A stretch of DNA of 64,000 nt from Eledone cirrhosa (lineage: Eukaryota). Shown here in pieces: positions 1 to 61,153 of the stretch; position 1 is the first letter of the stretch; every line of letters begins with the position of its first letter. The DNA is taken from NCBI GenBank assembly GCA_964016885.1, contig OZ024763.1, positions 20,584,001-20,648,000 on the forward strand. The letters are read 5' to 3'. The notes beneath the pieces are model-generated. The model was not told where the DNA came from and did not search any database. It saw only the letters and a program-made list of their open reading frames with translations. A program made the position numbers and the translations under genes.

Positions 1-3000
1 GCAAAACACTTCATTTCCCATTGCTCCAGTGGTAAAAGTGTTGGCCTGACGATCATAATGTCGTGGGTTTGACTCCTGGACTGGGTTGTGTGTTGTGTTC
101 TTGAGCAAAACACTTCATTTCCCATTGCTCCAGTGGTAAAAGTGTTGGCCTGACGATCATAATGTCGTAGGTTTCACTCCTGGACTGGGTTGTGTGTTGT
201 GTTCTTGAGCAAAACACTTCATTTCCCATTGCTCCAGTGGTAAAAGTGTTGGACTGACGATCATAATGTCGTGGGTTTGATTCCTGGACTGGGTTGTGTG
301 TTGTGTTCTTGAGCAAAACACTTCATTTCCCATTGCTCCAGTGGTAAAAGTGTTGGACTGACGATCATAATGTCGTGGGTTTGATTCCTGGACTGGGTTG
401 TGTGTTGTGTTCTTGAGCAAAACACTTCATTTCCCATTGATCCAGTGGTAAAAGTGTTAGACTTATGATCATAATGTGGGTTTGATTCCTGATCTGGGTT
501 GTGTGTTGTGTTCTTGAGCAAAACACTTCATTTCCCATAGATCCAGTGGTAAAAGTGTTGGACTGACGATCATAATGTCGTGGGTTTGATTCCTGGACTG
601 GGTTGTGTGTTGTGTTCTTGAGCAAAACACTTCATTTCCCATTGCTCCAGTGGTAAAAGTGTTGGACTGACGATCATAATGTCGTGGGTTTGATTCCTGG
701 ACTGGGTTGTGTGTTGTGTTCTTGAGCAAAACACTTCATTTCCCATTGCTCCAGTGGTAAAAGTGTTGGCCTGACGATCATAATGTCGTGGGTTTGACTC
801 CTGGACTGGGTTGTGTGTTGTGTTCTTGAGCAAAACACTTCATTTCCCATTGCTCCAGTGGTAAAAGTGTTGGCCTGACGATCATAATGTCGTGGGTTTG
901 ACTCCTGGACTGGGTTGTGTGTTGTGTTCTTGAGCAAAACACTTCATTTCCCATTGCTCCAGTGGTAAAAGTGTTGGCCTGACGATCATAATGTCGTAGG
1001 TTTCACTCCTGGACTGGGTTGTGTGTTGTGTTCTTGAGCAAAACACTTCATTTCCCATTGCTCCAGTGGTAAAAGTGTTGGACTGACGATCATAATGTCG
1101 TGGGTTTGATTCCTGGACTGGGTTGTGTGTTGTGTTCTTGAGCAAAACACTTCATTTCCCATTGCTCCAGTGGTAAAAGTGTTGGACTGACGATCATAAT
1201 GTCGTGGGTTTGATTCCTGGACTGGGTTGTGTGTTGTGTTCTTGAGCAAAACACTTCATTTCCCATTGCTCCAGTGGTAAAAGTGTTGGCCTGACGATCA
1301 TAATGTCGTGGGTTTGACTCCTGGACTGGGTTGTGTGTTGTGTTCTTGAGCAAAACACTTCATTTCCCATTGCTCCAGTGGTAAAAGTGTTGGCCTGACG
1401 ATCATAATGTCGTGGGTTTGACTCCTGGACTGGGTTGTGTGTTGTGTTCTTGAGCAAAACACTTCATTTCCCATTGCTCCAGTGGTAAAAGTGTTGGCCT
1501 GACGATCATAATGTCGTAGGTTTCACTCCTGGACTGGGTTGTGTGTTGTGTTCTTGAGCAAAACACTTCATTTCCCATTGCTCCAGTGGTAAAAGTGTTG
1601 GACTGACGATCATAATGTCGTGGGTTTGATTCCTGGACTGGGTTGTGTGTTGTGTTCTTGAGCAAAACACTTCATTTCCCATTGCTCCAGTGGTAAAAGT
1701 GTTGGACTGACGATCATAATGTCGTGGGTTTGATTCCTGGACTGGGTTGTGTGTTGTGTTCTTGAGCAAAACACTTCATTTCCCATTGCTCCAGTGGTAA
1801 AAGTGTTGGCCTGACGATCATAATGTCGTGGGTTTGACTCCTGGACTGGGTTGTGTGTTGTGTTCTTGAGCAAAACACTTCATTTCCCATTGCTCCAGTG
1901 GTAAAAGTGTTGGCCTGACGATCATAATGTCGTGGGTTTGACTCCTGGACTGGGTTGTGTGTTGTGTTCTTGAGCAAAACACTTCATTTCCCATTGCTCC
2001 AGTGGTAAAAGTGTTGGCCTGACGATCATAATGTCGTAGGTTTCACTCCTGGACTGGGTTGTGTGTTGTGTTCTTGAGCAAAACACTTCATTTCCCATTG
2101 CTCCAGTGGTAAAAGTGTTGGACTGACGATCATAATGTCGTGGGTTTGATTCCTGGACTGGGTTGTGTGTTGTGTTCTTGAGCAAAACACTTCATTTCCC
2201 ATTGCTCCAGTGGTAAAAGTGTTGGACTGACGATCATAATGTCGTGGGTTTGATTCCTGGACTGGGTTGTGTGTTGTGTTCTTGAGCAAAACACTTCATT
2301 TCCCATTGATCCAGTGGTAAAAGTGTTAGACTTATGATCATAATGTGGGTTTGATTCCTGATCTGGGTTGTGTGTTGTGTTCTTGAGCAAAACACTTCAT
2401 TTCCCATAGATCCAGTGGTAAAAGTGTTGGACTGACGATCATAATGTCGTGGGTTTGATTCCTGGACTGGGTTGTGTGTTGTGTTCTTGAGCAAAACACT
2501 TCATTTCCCATTGCTCCAGTGGTAAAAGTGTTGGACTGACGATCATAATGTTGTGGGTTTGATTCCTGGACTGGGTTGTGTGTTGTGTTCTTGAGCAAAA
2601 CACTTCATTTCCCATTGATCCAGTGGTAAAAGTGTTGGACTGATGATCATAATGTCGTGGGTTTGATTCCTGGACTGGGTTGTGTGTTGTGTTCTTGAGC
2701 AAAACACTTCATTTCCCATTGCTCCAGTGGTAAAAGTGTTGGACTGACGATCAGAATGTGGTGGGTTTGACTCCTGGACTGGATTGTGTGTTGTGTTCTT
2801 GAGCAAAACACTTCATTTCCCATTGCTCCAGTGGTAAAAGTGTTGGCCTGACGATCATAATGTCGTGGGTTTGACTCCTGGACTGGGTTGTGTGTTGTGT
2901 TCTTGAGCAAAACACTTCATTTCCCATTGATCCAGTGGTAAAAGTGTTGGCCTGACGATCAGAATGTGTTGGGTTTGACTCCTGGACTGGATTGTGTGTT

Positions 3001-5530
3001 GTGTTCTTGAGCAAAACACTTCATTTCCCATTGATCCAGTGGTAAAAGTGTTGGACTTACGATCAGAATGTGTTGGGTTTGACTCCTGATCTGGGTTGTG
3101 TGTTGTGTTCTTGAGCAAAACACTTCATTTCCCATTGCTCCAGTGGTAAAAGTGTTGGCCTGACGATCATAATGTCGTGGGTTTGACTCCTGGACTGGGT
3201 TGTGTGTTGTGTTCTTGAGCAAAACACTTCATTTCCCATTGCTCCAGTGGTAAAAGTGTTGGCCTGACGATCATAATGTCGTGGGTTTGACTCCTGGACT
3301 GGGTTGTGTGTTGTGTTCTTGAGCAAAACACTTCATTTCCCATTGCTCCAGTGGTAAAAGTGTTGGCCTGACGATCATAATGTCGTGGGTTTGACTCCTG
3401 GACTGGGTTGTGTGTTGTGTTCTTGAGCAAAACACTTCATTTCCCATTGCTCCAGTGGTAAAAGTGTTGGCCTGACGATCATAATGTCGTAGGTTTCACT
3501 CCTGGACTGGGTTGTGTGTTGTGTTCTTGAGCAAAACACTTCATTTCCCATTGCTCCAGTGGTAAAAGTGTTGGACTGACGATCATAATGTCGTGGGTTT
3601 GATTCCTGGACTGGGTTGTGTGTTGTGTTCTTGAGCAAAACACTTCATTTCCCATTGCTCCAGTGGTAAAAGTGTTGGACTGACGATCATAATGTCGTGG
3701 GTTTGATTCCTGGACTGGGTTGTGTGTTGTGTTCTTGAGCAAAACACTTCATTTCCCATTGATCCAGTGGTAAAAGTGTTAGACTTATGATCATAATGTG
3801 GGTTTGATTCCTGATCTGGGTTGTGTGTTGTGTTCTTGAGCAAAACACTTCATTTCCCATAGATCCAGTGGTAAAAGTGTTGGACTGACGATCATAATGT
3901 CGTGGGTTTGATTCCTGGACTGGGTTGTGTGTTGTGTTCTTGAGCAAAACACTTCATTTCCCATTGCTCCAGTGGTAAAAGTGTTGGCCTGACGATCATA
4001 ATGTCGTGGGTTTGATTCCTGGACTGGGTTGTGTGTTGTGTTCTTGAGCAAAACACTTCATTTCCCATTGCTCCAGTGGTAAAAGTGTTGGCCTGACGAT
4101 CATAATGTCGTGGGTTTGACTCCTGGACTGGGTTGTGTGTTGTGTTCTTGAGCAAAACACTTCATTTCCCATTGCTCCAGTGGTAAAAGTGTTGGCCTGA
4201 CGATCATAATGTCGTGGGTTTGACTCCTGGACTGGGTTGTGTGTTGTGTTCTTGAGCAAAACACTTCATTTCCCATTGCTCCAGTGGTAAAAGTGTTGGC
4301 CTGACGATCATAATGTCGTAGGTTTCACTCCTGGACTGGGTTGTGTGTTGTGTTCTTGAGCAAAACACTTCATTTCCCATTGCTCCAGTGGTAAAAGTGT
4401 TGGACTGACGATCATAATGTCGTGGGTTTGATTCCTGGACTGGGTTGTGTGTTGTGTTCTTGAGCAAAACACTTCATTTCCCATTGCTCCAGTGGTAAAA
4501 GTGTTGGACTGACGATCATAATGTCGTGGGTTTGATTCCTGGACTGGGTTGTGTGTTGTGTTCTTGAGCAAAACACTTCATTTCCCATTGATCCAGTGGT
4601 AAAAGTGTTAGACTTATGATCATAATGTGGGTTTGATTCCTGATCTGGGTTGTGTGTTGTGTTCTTGAGCAAAACACTTCATTTCCCATAGATCCAGTGG
4701 TAAAAGTGTTGGACTGACGATCATAATGTCGTGGGTTTGATTCCTGGACTGGGTTGTGTGTTGTGTTCTTGAGCAAAACACTTCATTTCCCATTGCTCCA
4801 GTGGTAAAAGTGTTGGACTGACGATCATAATGTTGTGGGTTTGATTCCTGGACTGGGTTGTGTGTTGTGTTCTTGAGCAAAACACTTCATTTCCCATTGA
4901 TCCAGTGGTAAAAGTGTTGGACTGATGATCATAATGTCGTGGGTTTGATTCCTGGACTGGGTTGTGTGTTGTGTTCTTGAGCAAAACACTTCATTTCCCA
5001 TTGCTCCAGTGGTAAAAGTGTTGGACTGACGATCAGAATGTGGTGGGTTTGACTCCTGGACTGGATTGTGTGTTGTGTTCTTGAGCAAAACACTTCATTT
5101 CCCATTGCTCCAGTGGTAAAAGTGTTGGCCTGACGATCATAATGTCGTGGGTTTGACTCCTGGACTGGGTTGTGTGTTGTGTTCTTGAGCAAAACACTTC
5201 ATTTCCCATTGATCCAGTGGTAAAAGTGTTGGCCTGACGATCAGAATGTGTTGGGTTTGACTCCTGGACTGGATTGTGTGTTGTGTTCTTGAGCAAAACA
5301 CTTCATTTCCCATTGATCCAGTGGTAAAAGTGTTGGACTTATGATCATAATGTCGTGGGTTTGATTCCTGGACTGGGTTGTGTGTTGTGTTCTTGAGCAA
5401 AACACTTCATTTCCCATTGCTCCAGTGGAAAAAGTGTTGGACTGACAACCATAATGTCGTCGGTTTGATTCCTGGTCTGGGTGATGTGTTGTTTCCTTGA
5501 GCAAAACACTTCATTTCACATTGCTCCAGT
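1..5530 (+). repeat. 104-bp tandem satellite (~53 copies, open at window start) derived from the tRNA-like head plus central conserved domain of a SINE
   Basis: Unit TGCTCCAGTGGTAAAAGTGTTGG(A/C)CTGACGATCATAATGTCGTGGGTTTGA(T/C)TCCTGGACTGGGTTGTGTGTTGTGTTCTTGAGCAAAACACTTCATTTCCCAT recurs every 104 bp (some units 101). It matches the 5' part of the monomeric SINE at 54030-54297(-). The last unit runs into the SINE tail at ~5530. Confidence 0.95.
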
Positions 5531-51709: not shown

Positions 51710-52385
51710 GGACTTACCACTAGAGCAACATGAAACGAAGTATTTTGCTCAAGAACACAACACAAACCAGTCCAGGAATCAAACCTATGACATTATGATC
51801 GTAAATCCAACACCCTTACCACTGGAGCAATGTGAAATGAAGTATTTTGCTCAAGAACACACCACACAACAAAGACTAGAAATCAAACTTCTAACATTAT
51901 GATCGTAAGTCAAACTTACCACTAGTCTAGAGTTGACTGGAGCAACATGAAATGAAGTGTCTTGCTCAAGAACACAACACACAACCCAGTCCAGAAATCA
52001 AACCCATGACATTATGATCGTAAGTCCAACACCCTTACCACTAGGCCAGAGTTGACTGAAGCAACATGAAATGAAGTGTCTTGCTCAAGAACACAACACA
52101 CAACCCAGTCTAGGAATCAAACCCATGACATTATGATCGTCAGTCCAACACCCTTACCACTAGGCCAGAGTTGACTGAAGCAACATGAAATGAAGTGTCT
52201 TGCTCAAGAACACAACACACAACCCAGTCTAGGAATCAAACCCATGACATTATGATCGTCAGTCCAACACCCTTACCACTAGGCCAGAGTTGACTGAAGC
52301 AACATGAAATGAAGTGTCTTGCTCAAGAACACAACACACAACCCAGTCTAGGAATCAAACCCATGACATTATGATCGTAAGTAAG
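51710..52385 (-). repeat. Tandem SINE-head array with 104- and ~120-bp units
   Basis: Same head/core as the 1-5530 satellite; the later units join via CACTAGGCCAGAGTTGACTG. Confidence 0.85.
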
Positions 52386-54297: not shown

Positions 54298-54657
54298 TCA
54301 CATATAGTATGTAAATAGTATATATAGAGTAATGTAAATGCTAAAGTGTTAAAGAAGGGGAGGAGGGAAATAATAAAAAGATATCAATGGTTTCTTATAT
54401 AGGCACAAGGCCAGCAATTTTGGGGGAGGGGAAAGTCGATTAAATCGACCCCAGTACCTGACTGGTACTTTATTTTATCGATCCCGTAAGGATGAAAGAC
54501 TAAGTTAACCTCGACGGGATTTGAACTCAGTATGGCAAGGGCCATAACTCTATGCGTCAAAGCATGGCGTCCGACCCTCTACCGATACTGCCAATCCACC
54601 GCCCAAGGAGGGAAATAATAAAAAGATATTAATAAATATAGAGAAAGAATAACTCAC

Positions 54658-55686
54658 AGGGAACGGTTCAGGTCCTTCGTGGATGATGAAACCCTCAATA
54701 ACATGAGTTAGAATATGAGGTTTCACTATAGCCTTTTGTTTCTCTACGACCACGGTATTATCCAACATGGTCGACACAGGATGCTGTGGTTTGCCTGAAG
54801 AAACGTCCATCGACTCAACCTGCCTGTTATCTTGAGTGGGTGTCGGTGGTTGGGCCGCATCGGCCTGTGCCCTTTTCTCTTGTTTCTGCTCGGATGCCGT
54901 CTGCTTTGAAGTGGGTTCAGCGAGGGTCTTCTTCTCCGAAGCGCTCTCCATCATGGCTATCGTTTTACGCCCCGTTTCAACCTCCGAGTCCGACTGACTC
55001 TTCGGTAGACTGATAGTCCCGTTTGTCTGGCTGGTTGGGGTAGTTGGTTTAGAGAGGCTTGTGGGCATCGTGGGTTTCGTTTGAGAGCCTGTTGACGAAG
55101 GGTTGCTCTTTTTCGTACGCACTTTTGTAGTTGTCTTTGGTGTGATGGTCGGAATATTGAGTTTCGGACCAGAGTTTGGTTGCATAGATATATTTGTCGG
55201 GTGTATTTTGGCAGTGTTTGAACCTTTGGAAGTCGAAGGTAAAATCGTTGAAAGTCCTTTATTGCCTTGGGTTGTGGTTTTTGCCGGTAATCCAACAGTT
55301 TTAGCCTGTAGGCCCGTTGTCATATCAATAAGTTTGGCAGTTTTCAACGGGTTAACAGGCTGCATCCCAGTAGGGGTGGCAGTGGCTGCAGCAACCATGG
55401 ATGGCTGTTGTTGAAGTGGCGTAGCAGTGCGGATATAGAGGGGCTGGCCAGCCAAGATGGTTGGTGATTGAGTCGTAAGTAACGGCTGGTGAGCTGAGAG
55501 AGGGATGCCCTGTTGCAAACTGGCCATGGCTTGCAGCATGGCTGGGTTCGTGAGCATCGGTTGAGATGCGAAGATCTGACCGCCGCTTGTCACAAGTTGA
55601 GATTGACTGTTCATGCGGAGAGGCGATTGGGAATTGATTAGTTGAGGTTGAGAGACAACGGTGTGACATGCTGATTGATTCTTTGA
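54658..55686 (-). CDS. ph: polyhomeotic large exon (Q/T/S-rich region + HD1 domain)
   Basis: TTTTCCAG|TCA...; 1029 nt open; ends KQKAIVKPHILTHVIEGFIIHEGPEPFP|GTGAGT (Ph HD1 motif); phase 0-0. Confidence 0.93.
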
Positions 55687-55893
55687 CTGGAAAAAATAAA
55701 AAAAATAAAAAAAGAGAAAAGAGAAAAAGAAAAAAAAATGATTAGTAAGTATTAATTATCAATAATGATTATATGGTCAACAAATCAATAATGTTAACTG
55801 CAGGGATATGATCTCCAAACTTTTTAGACCCCCTCTTCACCAAACCCCACATTATAATATATATATATATATACACATTAAATATCTATATGT

Positions 55894-55970
<77 letters not shown>

Positions 55971-56210
55971 TTTAGATAGATAGAGATATATATTTATTAT
56001 AATAAATATTTACTCTACGGGTTTTTATATATATAATCCATATCGAGCCCTCTTCGGATTTTAGTCTTTACATTTATTATTACTATATATATATATATTA
56101 GTGGTGTGAGTTTGTGAGACACGCTAAGTTCCGATACCATGTGCGTTATTATATATGCGCACACTATTCAGTTTTTTAATATACTTAGAAGTGACCAGGA
56201 TACTAATTCT

Positions 56211-56291
56211 TCACCCACTGACGAGCAAGAATCAGTATTCCTCTTCACAATTAATTTTGCGAAACAGCATAGCCAAATGCTGTCTGGGTGA
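56211..56291 (+). ncRNA. Complete type-I hammerhead ribozyme
   Basis: TCACCCA-CTGACGA-GCAAGA...TTTTGC-GAAA-CAGCAT-AGCCAA-ATGCTG-TC-TGGGTGA; 7-bp stem I, 6-bp stem II, long stem III, GUC site at 56282-56284. Confidence 0.85.
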
Positions 56292-56568
56292 TTGGTAGTT
56301 ACTACAATTCCGCTTTGTATTTATTTTCTTGATTTATTCTTAAATTGAGTCTGTCAAACCCTATTGTCCATAGTTAGTATTCTTTTCACCTTAGCGAATC
56401 TGGTCCCTTACGATTTGAACACATATATGTATATATCTGTGTTTATCTTTCTTTTATATTCAATTATAATATACGGCTCGGAAAAATCTCTTTCCTAGAG
56501 CTATTTTATTGTAAGAGACTATTTTGAGTTTCTAACTCAATATATACCTTTGATATATATATATATAT

Positions 56569-58874: not shown

Positions 58875-58920
58875 TGCTCTGATGAGTCCCACTTATAGTG
58901 CGGATGAAACAATGTTAGCA
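58875..58920 (+). ncRNA. Minimal type-I hammerhead motif (slightly degenerate)
   Basis: TGCT-CTGATGA-GTCC-CACTTATAGTGC-GGAT-GAAAC-AAT-GTT-AGCA, then AGTAAA. Confidence 0.65.
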
Positions 58921-60560: not shown

Positions 60561-61070
60561 TTATTATTATATGTGTTACTTATAACTATATCATATTATT
60601 ACCTCATGTATATTGGGTAGTTGTATTAGTACTATTATTATTATTATTTTCATTCCTACCATGCTTATTTTTATATTCAAATTCTTAATAAGGTTTAATT
60701 TGTGCAGTGGAAGATGGATGTGCGTATTGTTGTATGTGTATGTGTGTGTACGTGTGCGCACATATATACATATGCATATTGTATCTTTTGATTTTTATTG
60801 TAATTTTTTATTCTAATGTTGGTAAAGGTATATTATTGTATGTTATATTGTATTATATAAAATTCCTGCTCTATATAACCACCTTTGTTTAGCTCTAGTT
60901 TTTGCTTTGGACTATATTTGTAATATGATTCTTAATGTTATATACATCCTTAGTAATTATTATCATATATTTTTATTATATATTTTTGCAATACTTTAGT
61001 GTATGTACACTCCATATTCTTCGGAGATTCCGGCTTGTATCTGCCGATATTACTTCTTGTTGTTTTAATT

Positions 61071-61108
61071 GCCCTGATGAGTCCTTAATAGGACGAAACA
61101 TTGTCGGC
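61071..61108 (+). ncRNA. Minimal type-I hammerhead ribozyme, canonical core
   Basis: GCC-CTGATGA-GTCCT-TAAT-AGGAC-GAAAC-ATT-GTC-GGC, then AATAAA. Confidence 0.8.
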
Positions 61109-61153
61109 TAATAAAGACTTTTGATGTATTGAAGGCTTCTTTGTTTTACTCTC

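What the first reader, a model, noticed from the sequence alone, without database searches (positions are those of the whole stretch)
56211..56291. Intact full-size hammerhead antisense to polyhomeotic, ~0.5 kb upstream of the HD1 exon acceptor
Unlike the minimal motifs, all three stems are stable (7-bp stem I, 6-bp stem II, stem III CAGCAU/AUGCUG plus the core A-U pair), and the core and GUC site are canonical. It should therefore be able to cleave as a monomer (inference). It could process an antisense RNA or mark a retrozyme-like element spanning roughly 55990-56550.
Basis: partly seen in the sequence, partly recalled or inferred. Interest (0 to 1): 0.75.

Follow-up and report, generated by a model that had tools for sequence, protein, structure and literature searches.

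The report
Retrozyme hammerhead with long knotted helix
This hammerhead RNA motif, predicted to cut itself, belongs to a small jumping repeat with hundreds to thousands of copies that likely landed in this gene's intron by chance; its unusual feature is an extra helix of about 18 base pairs that likely braces, and may lock, the cutting fold.

Summary
The motif is real: a type I hammerhead at 56211-56291(+), antisense in a polyhomeotic intron, 524 nt from the acceptor. It is not a polyhomeotic feature. It lies in one 5'-shortened copy (56098-56560) of a 516-bp non-coding unit that is dispersed through the genome (664 exact 3' ends, 293 exact hammerhead halves). Copies end in (TA)n at two fixed points about 83 nt apart and form partial tandems and inverted arms. 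This is a non-LTR retrozyme with a Penelope-like insertion footprint; the scan has noted that kind before on other DNA. The claim of three stable stems is only partly right: across the family stem II is 3 bp and stem III 4 bp plus the core pair. It is kept in a distant 547-bp family and is pseudoknotted to stems I and II. It probably braces the active fold; fully zipped it may block cleavage within one unit. Cleavage, circles and the partner enzyme are untested. New variant of a known kind; interest 0.42.

The parts
56098..56560 (+). 5'-shortened single copy of a 516-bp non-coding retrozyme unit (unit positions 59-516), flanked by (TA)n
56211..56291 (+). Type I hammerhead motif: stem I 56211-56217/56285-56291, core 56218-56224, conserved stem II 56225-56227/56258-56260, GAAA 56261-56264, stem III 56265-56270/56277-56282; predicted cut after 56284
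56191..56210 (+). 5' strand (F) of the long extra helix, directly upstream of stem I
56228..56248 (+). 3' strand (F') of the long extra helix, inside loop II; 17 bp in this copy
56293..56304 (+). Small hairpin 3' of stem I, weakly supported (72% of cells paired, one column pair with three pair types)
56474..56560 (+). 'Tail' of about 83 nt between the two fixed 3' ends of family copies (unit positions 433 and 516)
55994..56097 (+). 3' tail of a different (TA)n-ending repeat in the same TA tract; not part of the element
54657..55687 (-). Polyhomeotic exon holding HD1 (left end approximate; acceptor at 55687)

Best explanation
This is a type I hammerhead motif inside one 5'-shortened copy of a 516-base non-coding repeat (a non-LTR retrozyme) that sits in a TA microsatellite of a polyhomeotic intron on the opposite strand, and it was likely pasted there by the enzyme of a Penelope-like retrotransposon with no role for the gene. 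Shown: the repeat is dispersed, lacks a long reading frame, ends at two fixed points next to (TA)n, and occurs as partial tandems, true tandems and inverted arms; its hammerhead carries a covarying helix between the 5' flank and loop II. Inferred: tandem loci are transcribed, the hammerheads cut out unit-length RNA that would be circularised, and a Penelope-type endonuclease/reverse transcriptase nicks (TA)n and starts copying at one of two internal sites, running through the hammerhead and the unit junction. Inferred: the extra helix forms first, holds the core in its loop, and its proximal 12-14 bp likely act as the pseudoknot that props stems I and II together in place of the usual loop-bulge contact. 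This copy has one hammerhead and no tandem partner, so it could not release a circle, and it cannot cut the polyhomeotic pre-mRNA because it is antisense.
For:: 3047 first-look candidates; the 40 scored are 93-100% identical over 410-421 nt on many contigs; 664 exact 3'-end 30-mers and 293 exact hammerhead halves, controls 0; unit 516 bp; locus L032 holds three hammerheads 519 bp apart; of 75 pieces in the 30 loci, 48 end near 516 and 18 near 433; of the 48, 28 run into TA and 15 into the next unit; 5' ends are scattered with no pile at the cut site; longest ATG frame 52 codons; GC 33%. The same anatomy (partial tandem, inverted 5' arm, optional tail, TA bias) defines Penelope-like insertions in PMC8557442, and two internal start sites bounding a tail were shown in vitro in PMC11167929. 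The genome is rich in GIY-YIG elements with the Neptune-type Cys linker. Extra helix: 42 of 46 hammerheads pair F with loop II better than 95% of shuffles, and the 4 misses visibly lack an intact flank; F pairs better with loop II than with the 3' flank in 46 of 46; 86.7% of 603 cells paired against 36-60% for slid controls, with A-U/G-C, U-A/A-U and G-C/U-A swaps; kept in a 547-bp family only 69-77% alike in its 3' part (-17.7 kcal/mol).
Against: No autonomous element sharing this unit's ends or hammerhead was found among 50 GIY-YIG loci (30, 20), so the partner enzyme is unidentified; rare full-length parents could be missed. No cleavage or circle data. In Xenopus only 1 of 9 predicted retrozyme dimers cleaved in vitro (bioRxiv 10.64898/2026.07.22.740005). 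The covariation rests on few independent events (1-3 changes per pair on the tree), and two of five measures did not beat the shuffles (414/500 and 449/500). By rough geometry the stretched linker cannot span the fully zipped helix in 22 of 40 cases, so the simple bracing model needs the far end to fray. The unit (516 nt) is longer than the 170-400 nt given for invertebrate retrozymes in PMC7229834.
Confidence: 0.85

Rival explanations
1. Same element, but the long helix is a lock: fully zipped it keeps stem II from closing within one unit, so a monomer or monomeric circle stays uncut and cleavage needs the 3' half of a neighbouring unit (swap through stems I and II) or a protein that frays the helix. 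(This rivals only the helix step.)
For: Median helix 18 bp over 21 nt with an 8-nt linker; linker too short for the full helix in 22 of 40. Distal pairs are conserved (32-36 of 38 paired). Stem II is only 3 bp. PMC7229834 states that some unknown block must protect animal retrozyme circles; the Poseidon hammerhead needed protein.
Against: Opening a few distal pairs would restore reach (inference), and the middle of the distal part is often mismatched (11-15 of 38 unpaired at three columns). A 6-bp stem I with a short stem II and a pseudoknot is the known activating arrangement (PMC3088659).
Confidence: 0.3
2. The unit is simply the terminal repeat (pLTR) left by 5'-truncated insertions of an autonomous Penelope-like element not yet found.
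For: Penelope-type ends; donor-like and acceptor-like signals just upstream of the hammerhead, recalling the intron that ends at helix I in Drosophila Penelope.
Against: Where a main copy reaches unit position 1-2 it is preceded by the unit's own 3' end (18 of 18 such copies among the 30 loci, read); no ORF was linked in 30 loci chosen only by the 3' end; Neptune elements here carry different, minimal hammerheads.
Confidence: 0.1
3. The hammerhead has been co-opted to process an antisense RNA that regulates polyhomeotic.
For: Intact core and GUC site; 411 nt from an exon; a private change lengthens stem III.
Against: Hundreds of equivalent copies elsewhere; 5 private changes fit recent neutral decay; other hammerhead repeats lie in both orientations in the same gene; the X4 contig over the hammerhead differs from this copy at 9 letters, so it comes from another locus.
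Confidence: 0.03

Closest known systems
Metazoan non-LTR retrozymes (Cervera and de la Pena 2020, PMC7229834; passages, part 3 and Discussion read; Li et al. bioRxiv 10.64898/2026.07.22.740005, parts 1-3 of 5 read)
   Same: Non-coding, GC under 45%, one type I hammerhead per unit, monomers plus tandems, coexists with Penelope-like elements, stem III stable as in invertebrate retrozymes.
   Different: Unit 516 bp (invertebrate range given as 170-400; vertebrate consensus 51-972); mostly dispersed with Penelope-type ends; 30-nt loop II forming a long helix with the 5' flank; expression as circles untested.
Penelope-like element pLTRs and insertion footprint (Craig et al. 2021, PMC8557442, passages; Frangieh et al. 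2024, PMC11167929, parts 1-2 of 4)
   Same: 5' truncation, partial tandems, inverted 5' arm, optional tail between two 3' ends, (TA)n bias, sense hammerhead near the 3' end.
   Different: No ORF; tail about 83 nt rather than 30-40; hammerhead is full-size, not the minimal dimer type (PMC4209133, passages).
Pseudoknotted hammerheads (Perreault et al. 2011, PMC3088659, passages on 'pseudoknot')
   Same: Watson-Crick pairing links the ends of stems I and II; reported for all three types; short stem II.
   Different: The examples in the passages read are 4-6 bp; here a median of 18 bp, in a repetitive animal type I family, and too long to coexist fully with stem II in about half of the copies.

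Membership tests
Type I hammerhead ribozyme | Core CUGANGA / GAAA / NUH with three stems, stem I open | tested here: met
Type I hammerhead ribozyme | Match to Rfam Hammerhead_1 | tested here: not met
   no hit at this place at E<=1 (likely because loop II and stem III exceed the model)
Type I hammerhead ribozyme | Self-cleavage in Mg2+ | not testable with these tools
   no assay
Non-LTR retrozyme | Short non-coding, low-GC unit with one type I hammerhead | tested here: met
   516 bp, GC 33%, longest ATG frame 52 codons
Non-LTR retrozyme | Tandem copies with two or more consecutive hammerheads | tested here: met
   family level: L032 (three, damaged), L003, L034, L035; 547-bp relative L220/L223. 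The window copy itself is a lone partial monomer.
Non-LTR retrozyme | Expression as unit-length linear and circular RNA | tested here: inconclusive
   only contigs, run kind not on record; circles cannot be seen
Penelope-like element (autonomous) | ORF with RT and GIY-YIG endonuclease | tested here: not met
   no shared ends with 50 GIY-YIG loci
Penelope-like element (insertion footprint) | 5' truncation, partial tandem, inverted arm, tail, (TA)n bias | tested here: met
Pseudoknotted hammerhead | Covarying pairing between stem I extension and loop II | tested here: met
   (few independent events)
Pseudoknotted hammerhead | Pseudoknot needed for fast cleavage | not testable with these tools
   needs mutation and rescue

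The most novel reading that the evidence does not exclude
This clan of retrozymes uses an 18-bp flank/loop II helix as a built-in lock: a single unit, linear or circular, cannot close stem II, and cleavage happens only in multimers by swapping 3' halves between units. That would be a new dimer mode (through stems I and II rather than stem III) and a concrete answer to how animal retrozyme circles avoid cutting themselves open.
Probability: 0.2. Interest if true: 0.72.

Novelty: new variant of a known kind. Interest (0 to 1): 0.42.

Why it matters
As a polyhomeotic feature it is ordinary: a repeat insertion. As a ribozyme family it offers two testable things. First, a long covarying helix that I did not find described for animal type I hammerheads in the searches run and that Rfam's model misses; it bears on the open question of what keeps retrozyme circles closed. 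Second, a non-coding retrozyme with the exact insertion footprint of Penelope-like elements, including two fixed start points conserved across three families, which gives defined RNA templates for testing the proposed mobilisation by Penelope-type enzymes. The young 547-bp relative (98-100% identical copies, true dimers) is the better test object than the window copy.

Tried and rejected
Rfam scan of the window: no hammerhead hit at this place; only the minimal motif at 61068-61112. Search for an autonomous partner: PF26215 is not in the library; PF01541 gave 10,596 candidates, 150 scored; I examined 50 loci. Related pieces beside some of them (L063, L081, L088, L124, L137, L138) are separate insertions into TA tracts, not shared ends. 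Expression: no RNA holder listed; this is no evidence either way. Canonical stem I extension (F with the 3' flank, the fold ViennaRNA prefers) was rejected as the conserved structure because F pairs better with loop II in 46 of 46. A loop II/loop III pairing seen by eye was dropped: it fails in several subfamilies and was not counted. A pile-up of 5' ends at the cut site, expected from a linear cut template, was not seen. The ensemble calculation stopped with an error after 18 of 47 rows were folded (4 more skipped as broken cores) and cannot model pseudoknots, so it says little about activity. Rows dropped: alignment A1 used 43 of the 74 motifs plus 4 added sister copies; one search kept 24 of the 36 stretches fetched (the rest failed the core pattern) plus motifs from 19 earlier loci; alignment A2 used 38 of those 46 rows, leaving out flank-damaged and same-locus rows. 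The structure counted was read from these sequences, which favours it over slid controls. Whether the insertion is polymorphic could not be tested: no contig spans it. The supplement of PMC7229834 could not be read and bioRxiv supplements are closed; either may show mollusc hammerheads with a similar helix. An upstream polyhomeotic exon candidate lies about 3.7-3.9 kb beyond the window end; its splicing was not tested.

Full report
1. The observation. The sequence at 56211-56291(+) holds every conserved hammerhead nucleotide in type I order, with a predicted cut after C56284. The gene on the other strand is polyhomeotic: the exon below 55687 matches the HD1 peptide of PHC2, another exon has a zf-FCS domain, and a contig of run X4 leaves the genome exactly at 55687. 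Rfam did not detect the motif. The claim of three stable stems needs correction. Folding gives stem II almost no pairing probability, only three of its pairs are conserved, and the 6-bp stem III comes from T56278, present in 1 of the 30 closest copies.

2. It is a repeat. A search of the own genome (3.0 Gb; probably an octopus, which is my inference and was not tested) gave 3047 candidates; the 40 scored are 93-100% identical across the query. Homology runs from 56098 to about 56560. Other copies carry 58 more bases at the 5' side, preceded by the unit's own 3' end, so the unit is 516 bp and closed on itself. Exact patterns give lower bounds of 664 3' ends and 293 hammerhead halves, with 0 in the controls. 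A sister subfamily at about 79% identity and a younger 547-bp family share the plan. The stretch 55994-56097 belongs to another repeat.

3. The insertion footprint. Of 75 pieces in the 30 loci, 48 end near unit position 516 and 18 near 433; ends run into (TA)n or into the next unit, and 5' ends are scattered. The loci, chosen only by their 3' end, show the same. Many loci have an inverted, 5'-shortened arm that ends at 433. The 547-bp family has two ends 82 nt apart. This is the structure described for Penelope-like elements (PMC8557442), whose tail is bounded by two internal start sites of reverse transcription (PMC11167929). Copies run through the cut site and the unit junction, so the template was likely an uncut multimer or a circle (inference). 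The unit has no frame above 52 codons. The genome has many GIY-YIG elements with a Neptune-type linker (clade name from the Cys linker described), but none of 50 loci examined shares this unit's ends or hammerhead. The best label is a non-LTR retrozyme (PMC7229834; bioRxiv 10.64898/2026.07.22.740005). The window copy has one hammerhead and no tandem partner.

4. The 20 bases before stem I are complementary to most of loop II. In the window copy 56191-56210 pairs with 56228-56248 (17 bp, -14.0 kcal/mol as a hairpin). Of 46 hammerheads tested, 42 beat 95% of loop shuffles, and the other 4 have a damaged or missing flank. In 38 aligned copies 86.7% of 603 cells pair, against 36-60% for slid partners, with double changes at four column pairs; two of five measures did not exceed the shuffles. 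On a tree built from downstream sequence these are 1-3 events per pair, so the support within the family is modest; the stronger argument is that the 547-bp family and the copy in L137 keep a helix of 19-20 bp with different letters. The helix encloses the 5' strands of stems I and II, so it is pseudoknotted to both. Pseudoknots linking stems I and II are known and are needed for fast cleavage (PMC3088659), but the examples in the passages read are 4-6 bp. Here the median is 18 bp with an 8-nt linker, too short to span the full helix in 22 of 40 cases by rough geometry. I put about 60% on the proximal part acting as the activating brace with a frayed far end, 30% on a lock that favours cleavage between units, and 10% on no effect on cleavage.

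5. Relation to polyhomeotic. The motif is antisense and cannot cut the pre-mRNA. It shows 10 differences from the majority of its closest relatives, 5 of them private, as expected of a recent insertion drifting neutrally. Other hammerhead repeats lie in the same gene in both orientations. Run X4, whose kind is not on record but which behaves like RNA, holds family sequence from other loci, including a 486-nt contig of a diverged member; contigs cannot show strand, level or circles.

6. Novelty. Retrozymes, Penelope footprints and pseudoknotted hammerheads are all known, and earlier notes of this scan describe similar TA-inserted retrozymes here and in another genome (unchecked notes). I found no description of this family or of so long a flank/loop II helix in an animal type I hammerhead in the searches (one search returned only unrelated papers); unread supplements and repeat databases could hold it. 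Papers seen: PMC8557442, PMC4209133, PMC3088659, PMC7936874, PMC7761336, PMC6962438 as passages; PMC7229834 as passages, part 3 and Discussion; PMC11167929 parts 1-2; the bioRxiv preprint parts 1-3. Verdict: real motif, mobile-element origin, no evidence of a host role; new structural variant of a known kind; interest 0.42.

Noticed in passing
L213-L227 (e.g. L223:1031-2124 in the oriented copy; G000:C2:205665092-205665863): A young 547-bp relative (copies 93-100% identical, true dimers) with a hammerhead that has a stem III region of about 60 nt, the same long flank/loop II helix and two 3' ends 82 nt apart.
   Followed up: partly
window 58879(+), 61074(+), 37768(-), 33013(+)/28800(-): Other hammerhead motifs in the same gene, with minimal stem III; the one at 58879 also occurs in L128; 33013 and 28800 are an identical inverted pair.
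   Followed up: no
window 56106-56189: Donor-like and acceptor-like signals bracket 84 nt just before the F strand and recur in some subfamilies; possibly a relic of the Penelope 5' intron.
   Followed up: partly
run X4 laid on L023:1420-1990: A 486-nt contig of high word depth from a diverged family member in a run that behaves like RNA; a candidate abundant unit-length transcript.
   Followed up: no
window 55994-56097; L090, L097, L131, L155, L171: 3' tail of another TA-ending repeat family with inverted arms, found in 12 other loci.
   Followed up: partly
window 1-5300: Tandem array of about 104 bp carrying the 5' core heptamer of a hammerhead but no matching remainder in my scan; the same repeat occurs at 52143-52262(-).
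   Followed up: no
L061-L090, L121-L140: At least four Neptune-like families with long open frames; one has a variant hammerhead core in its 3' region and its own short tail between two TA tracts.
   Followed up: partly
just beyond the window, G000:C24:20651700-20651920(-): Candidate upstream polyhomeotic exon (Ser/Gly/Gln-rich frame ending at a donor-like site).
   Followed up: partly
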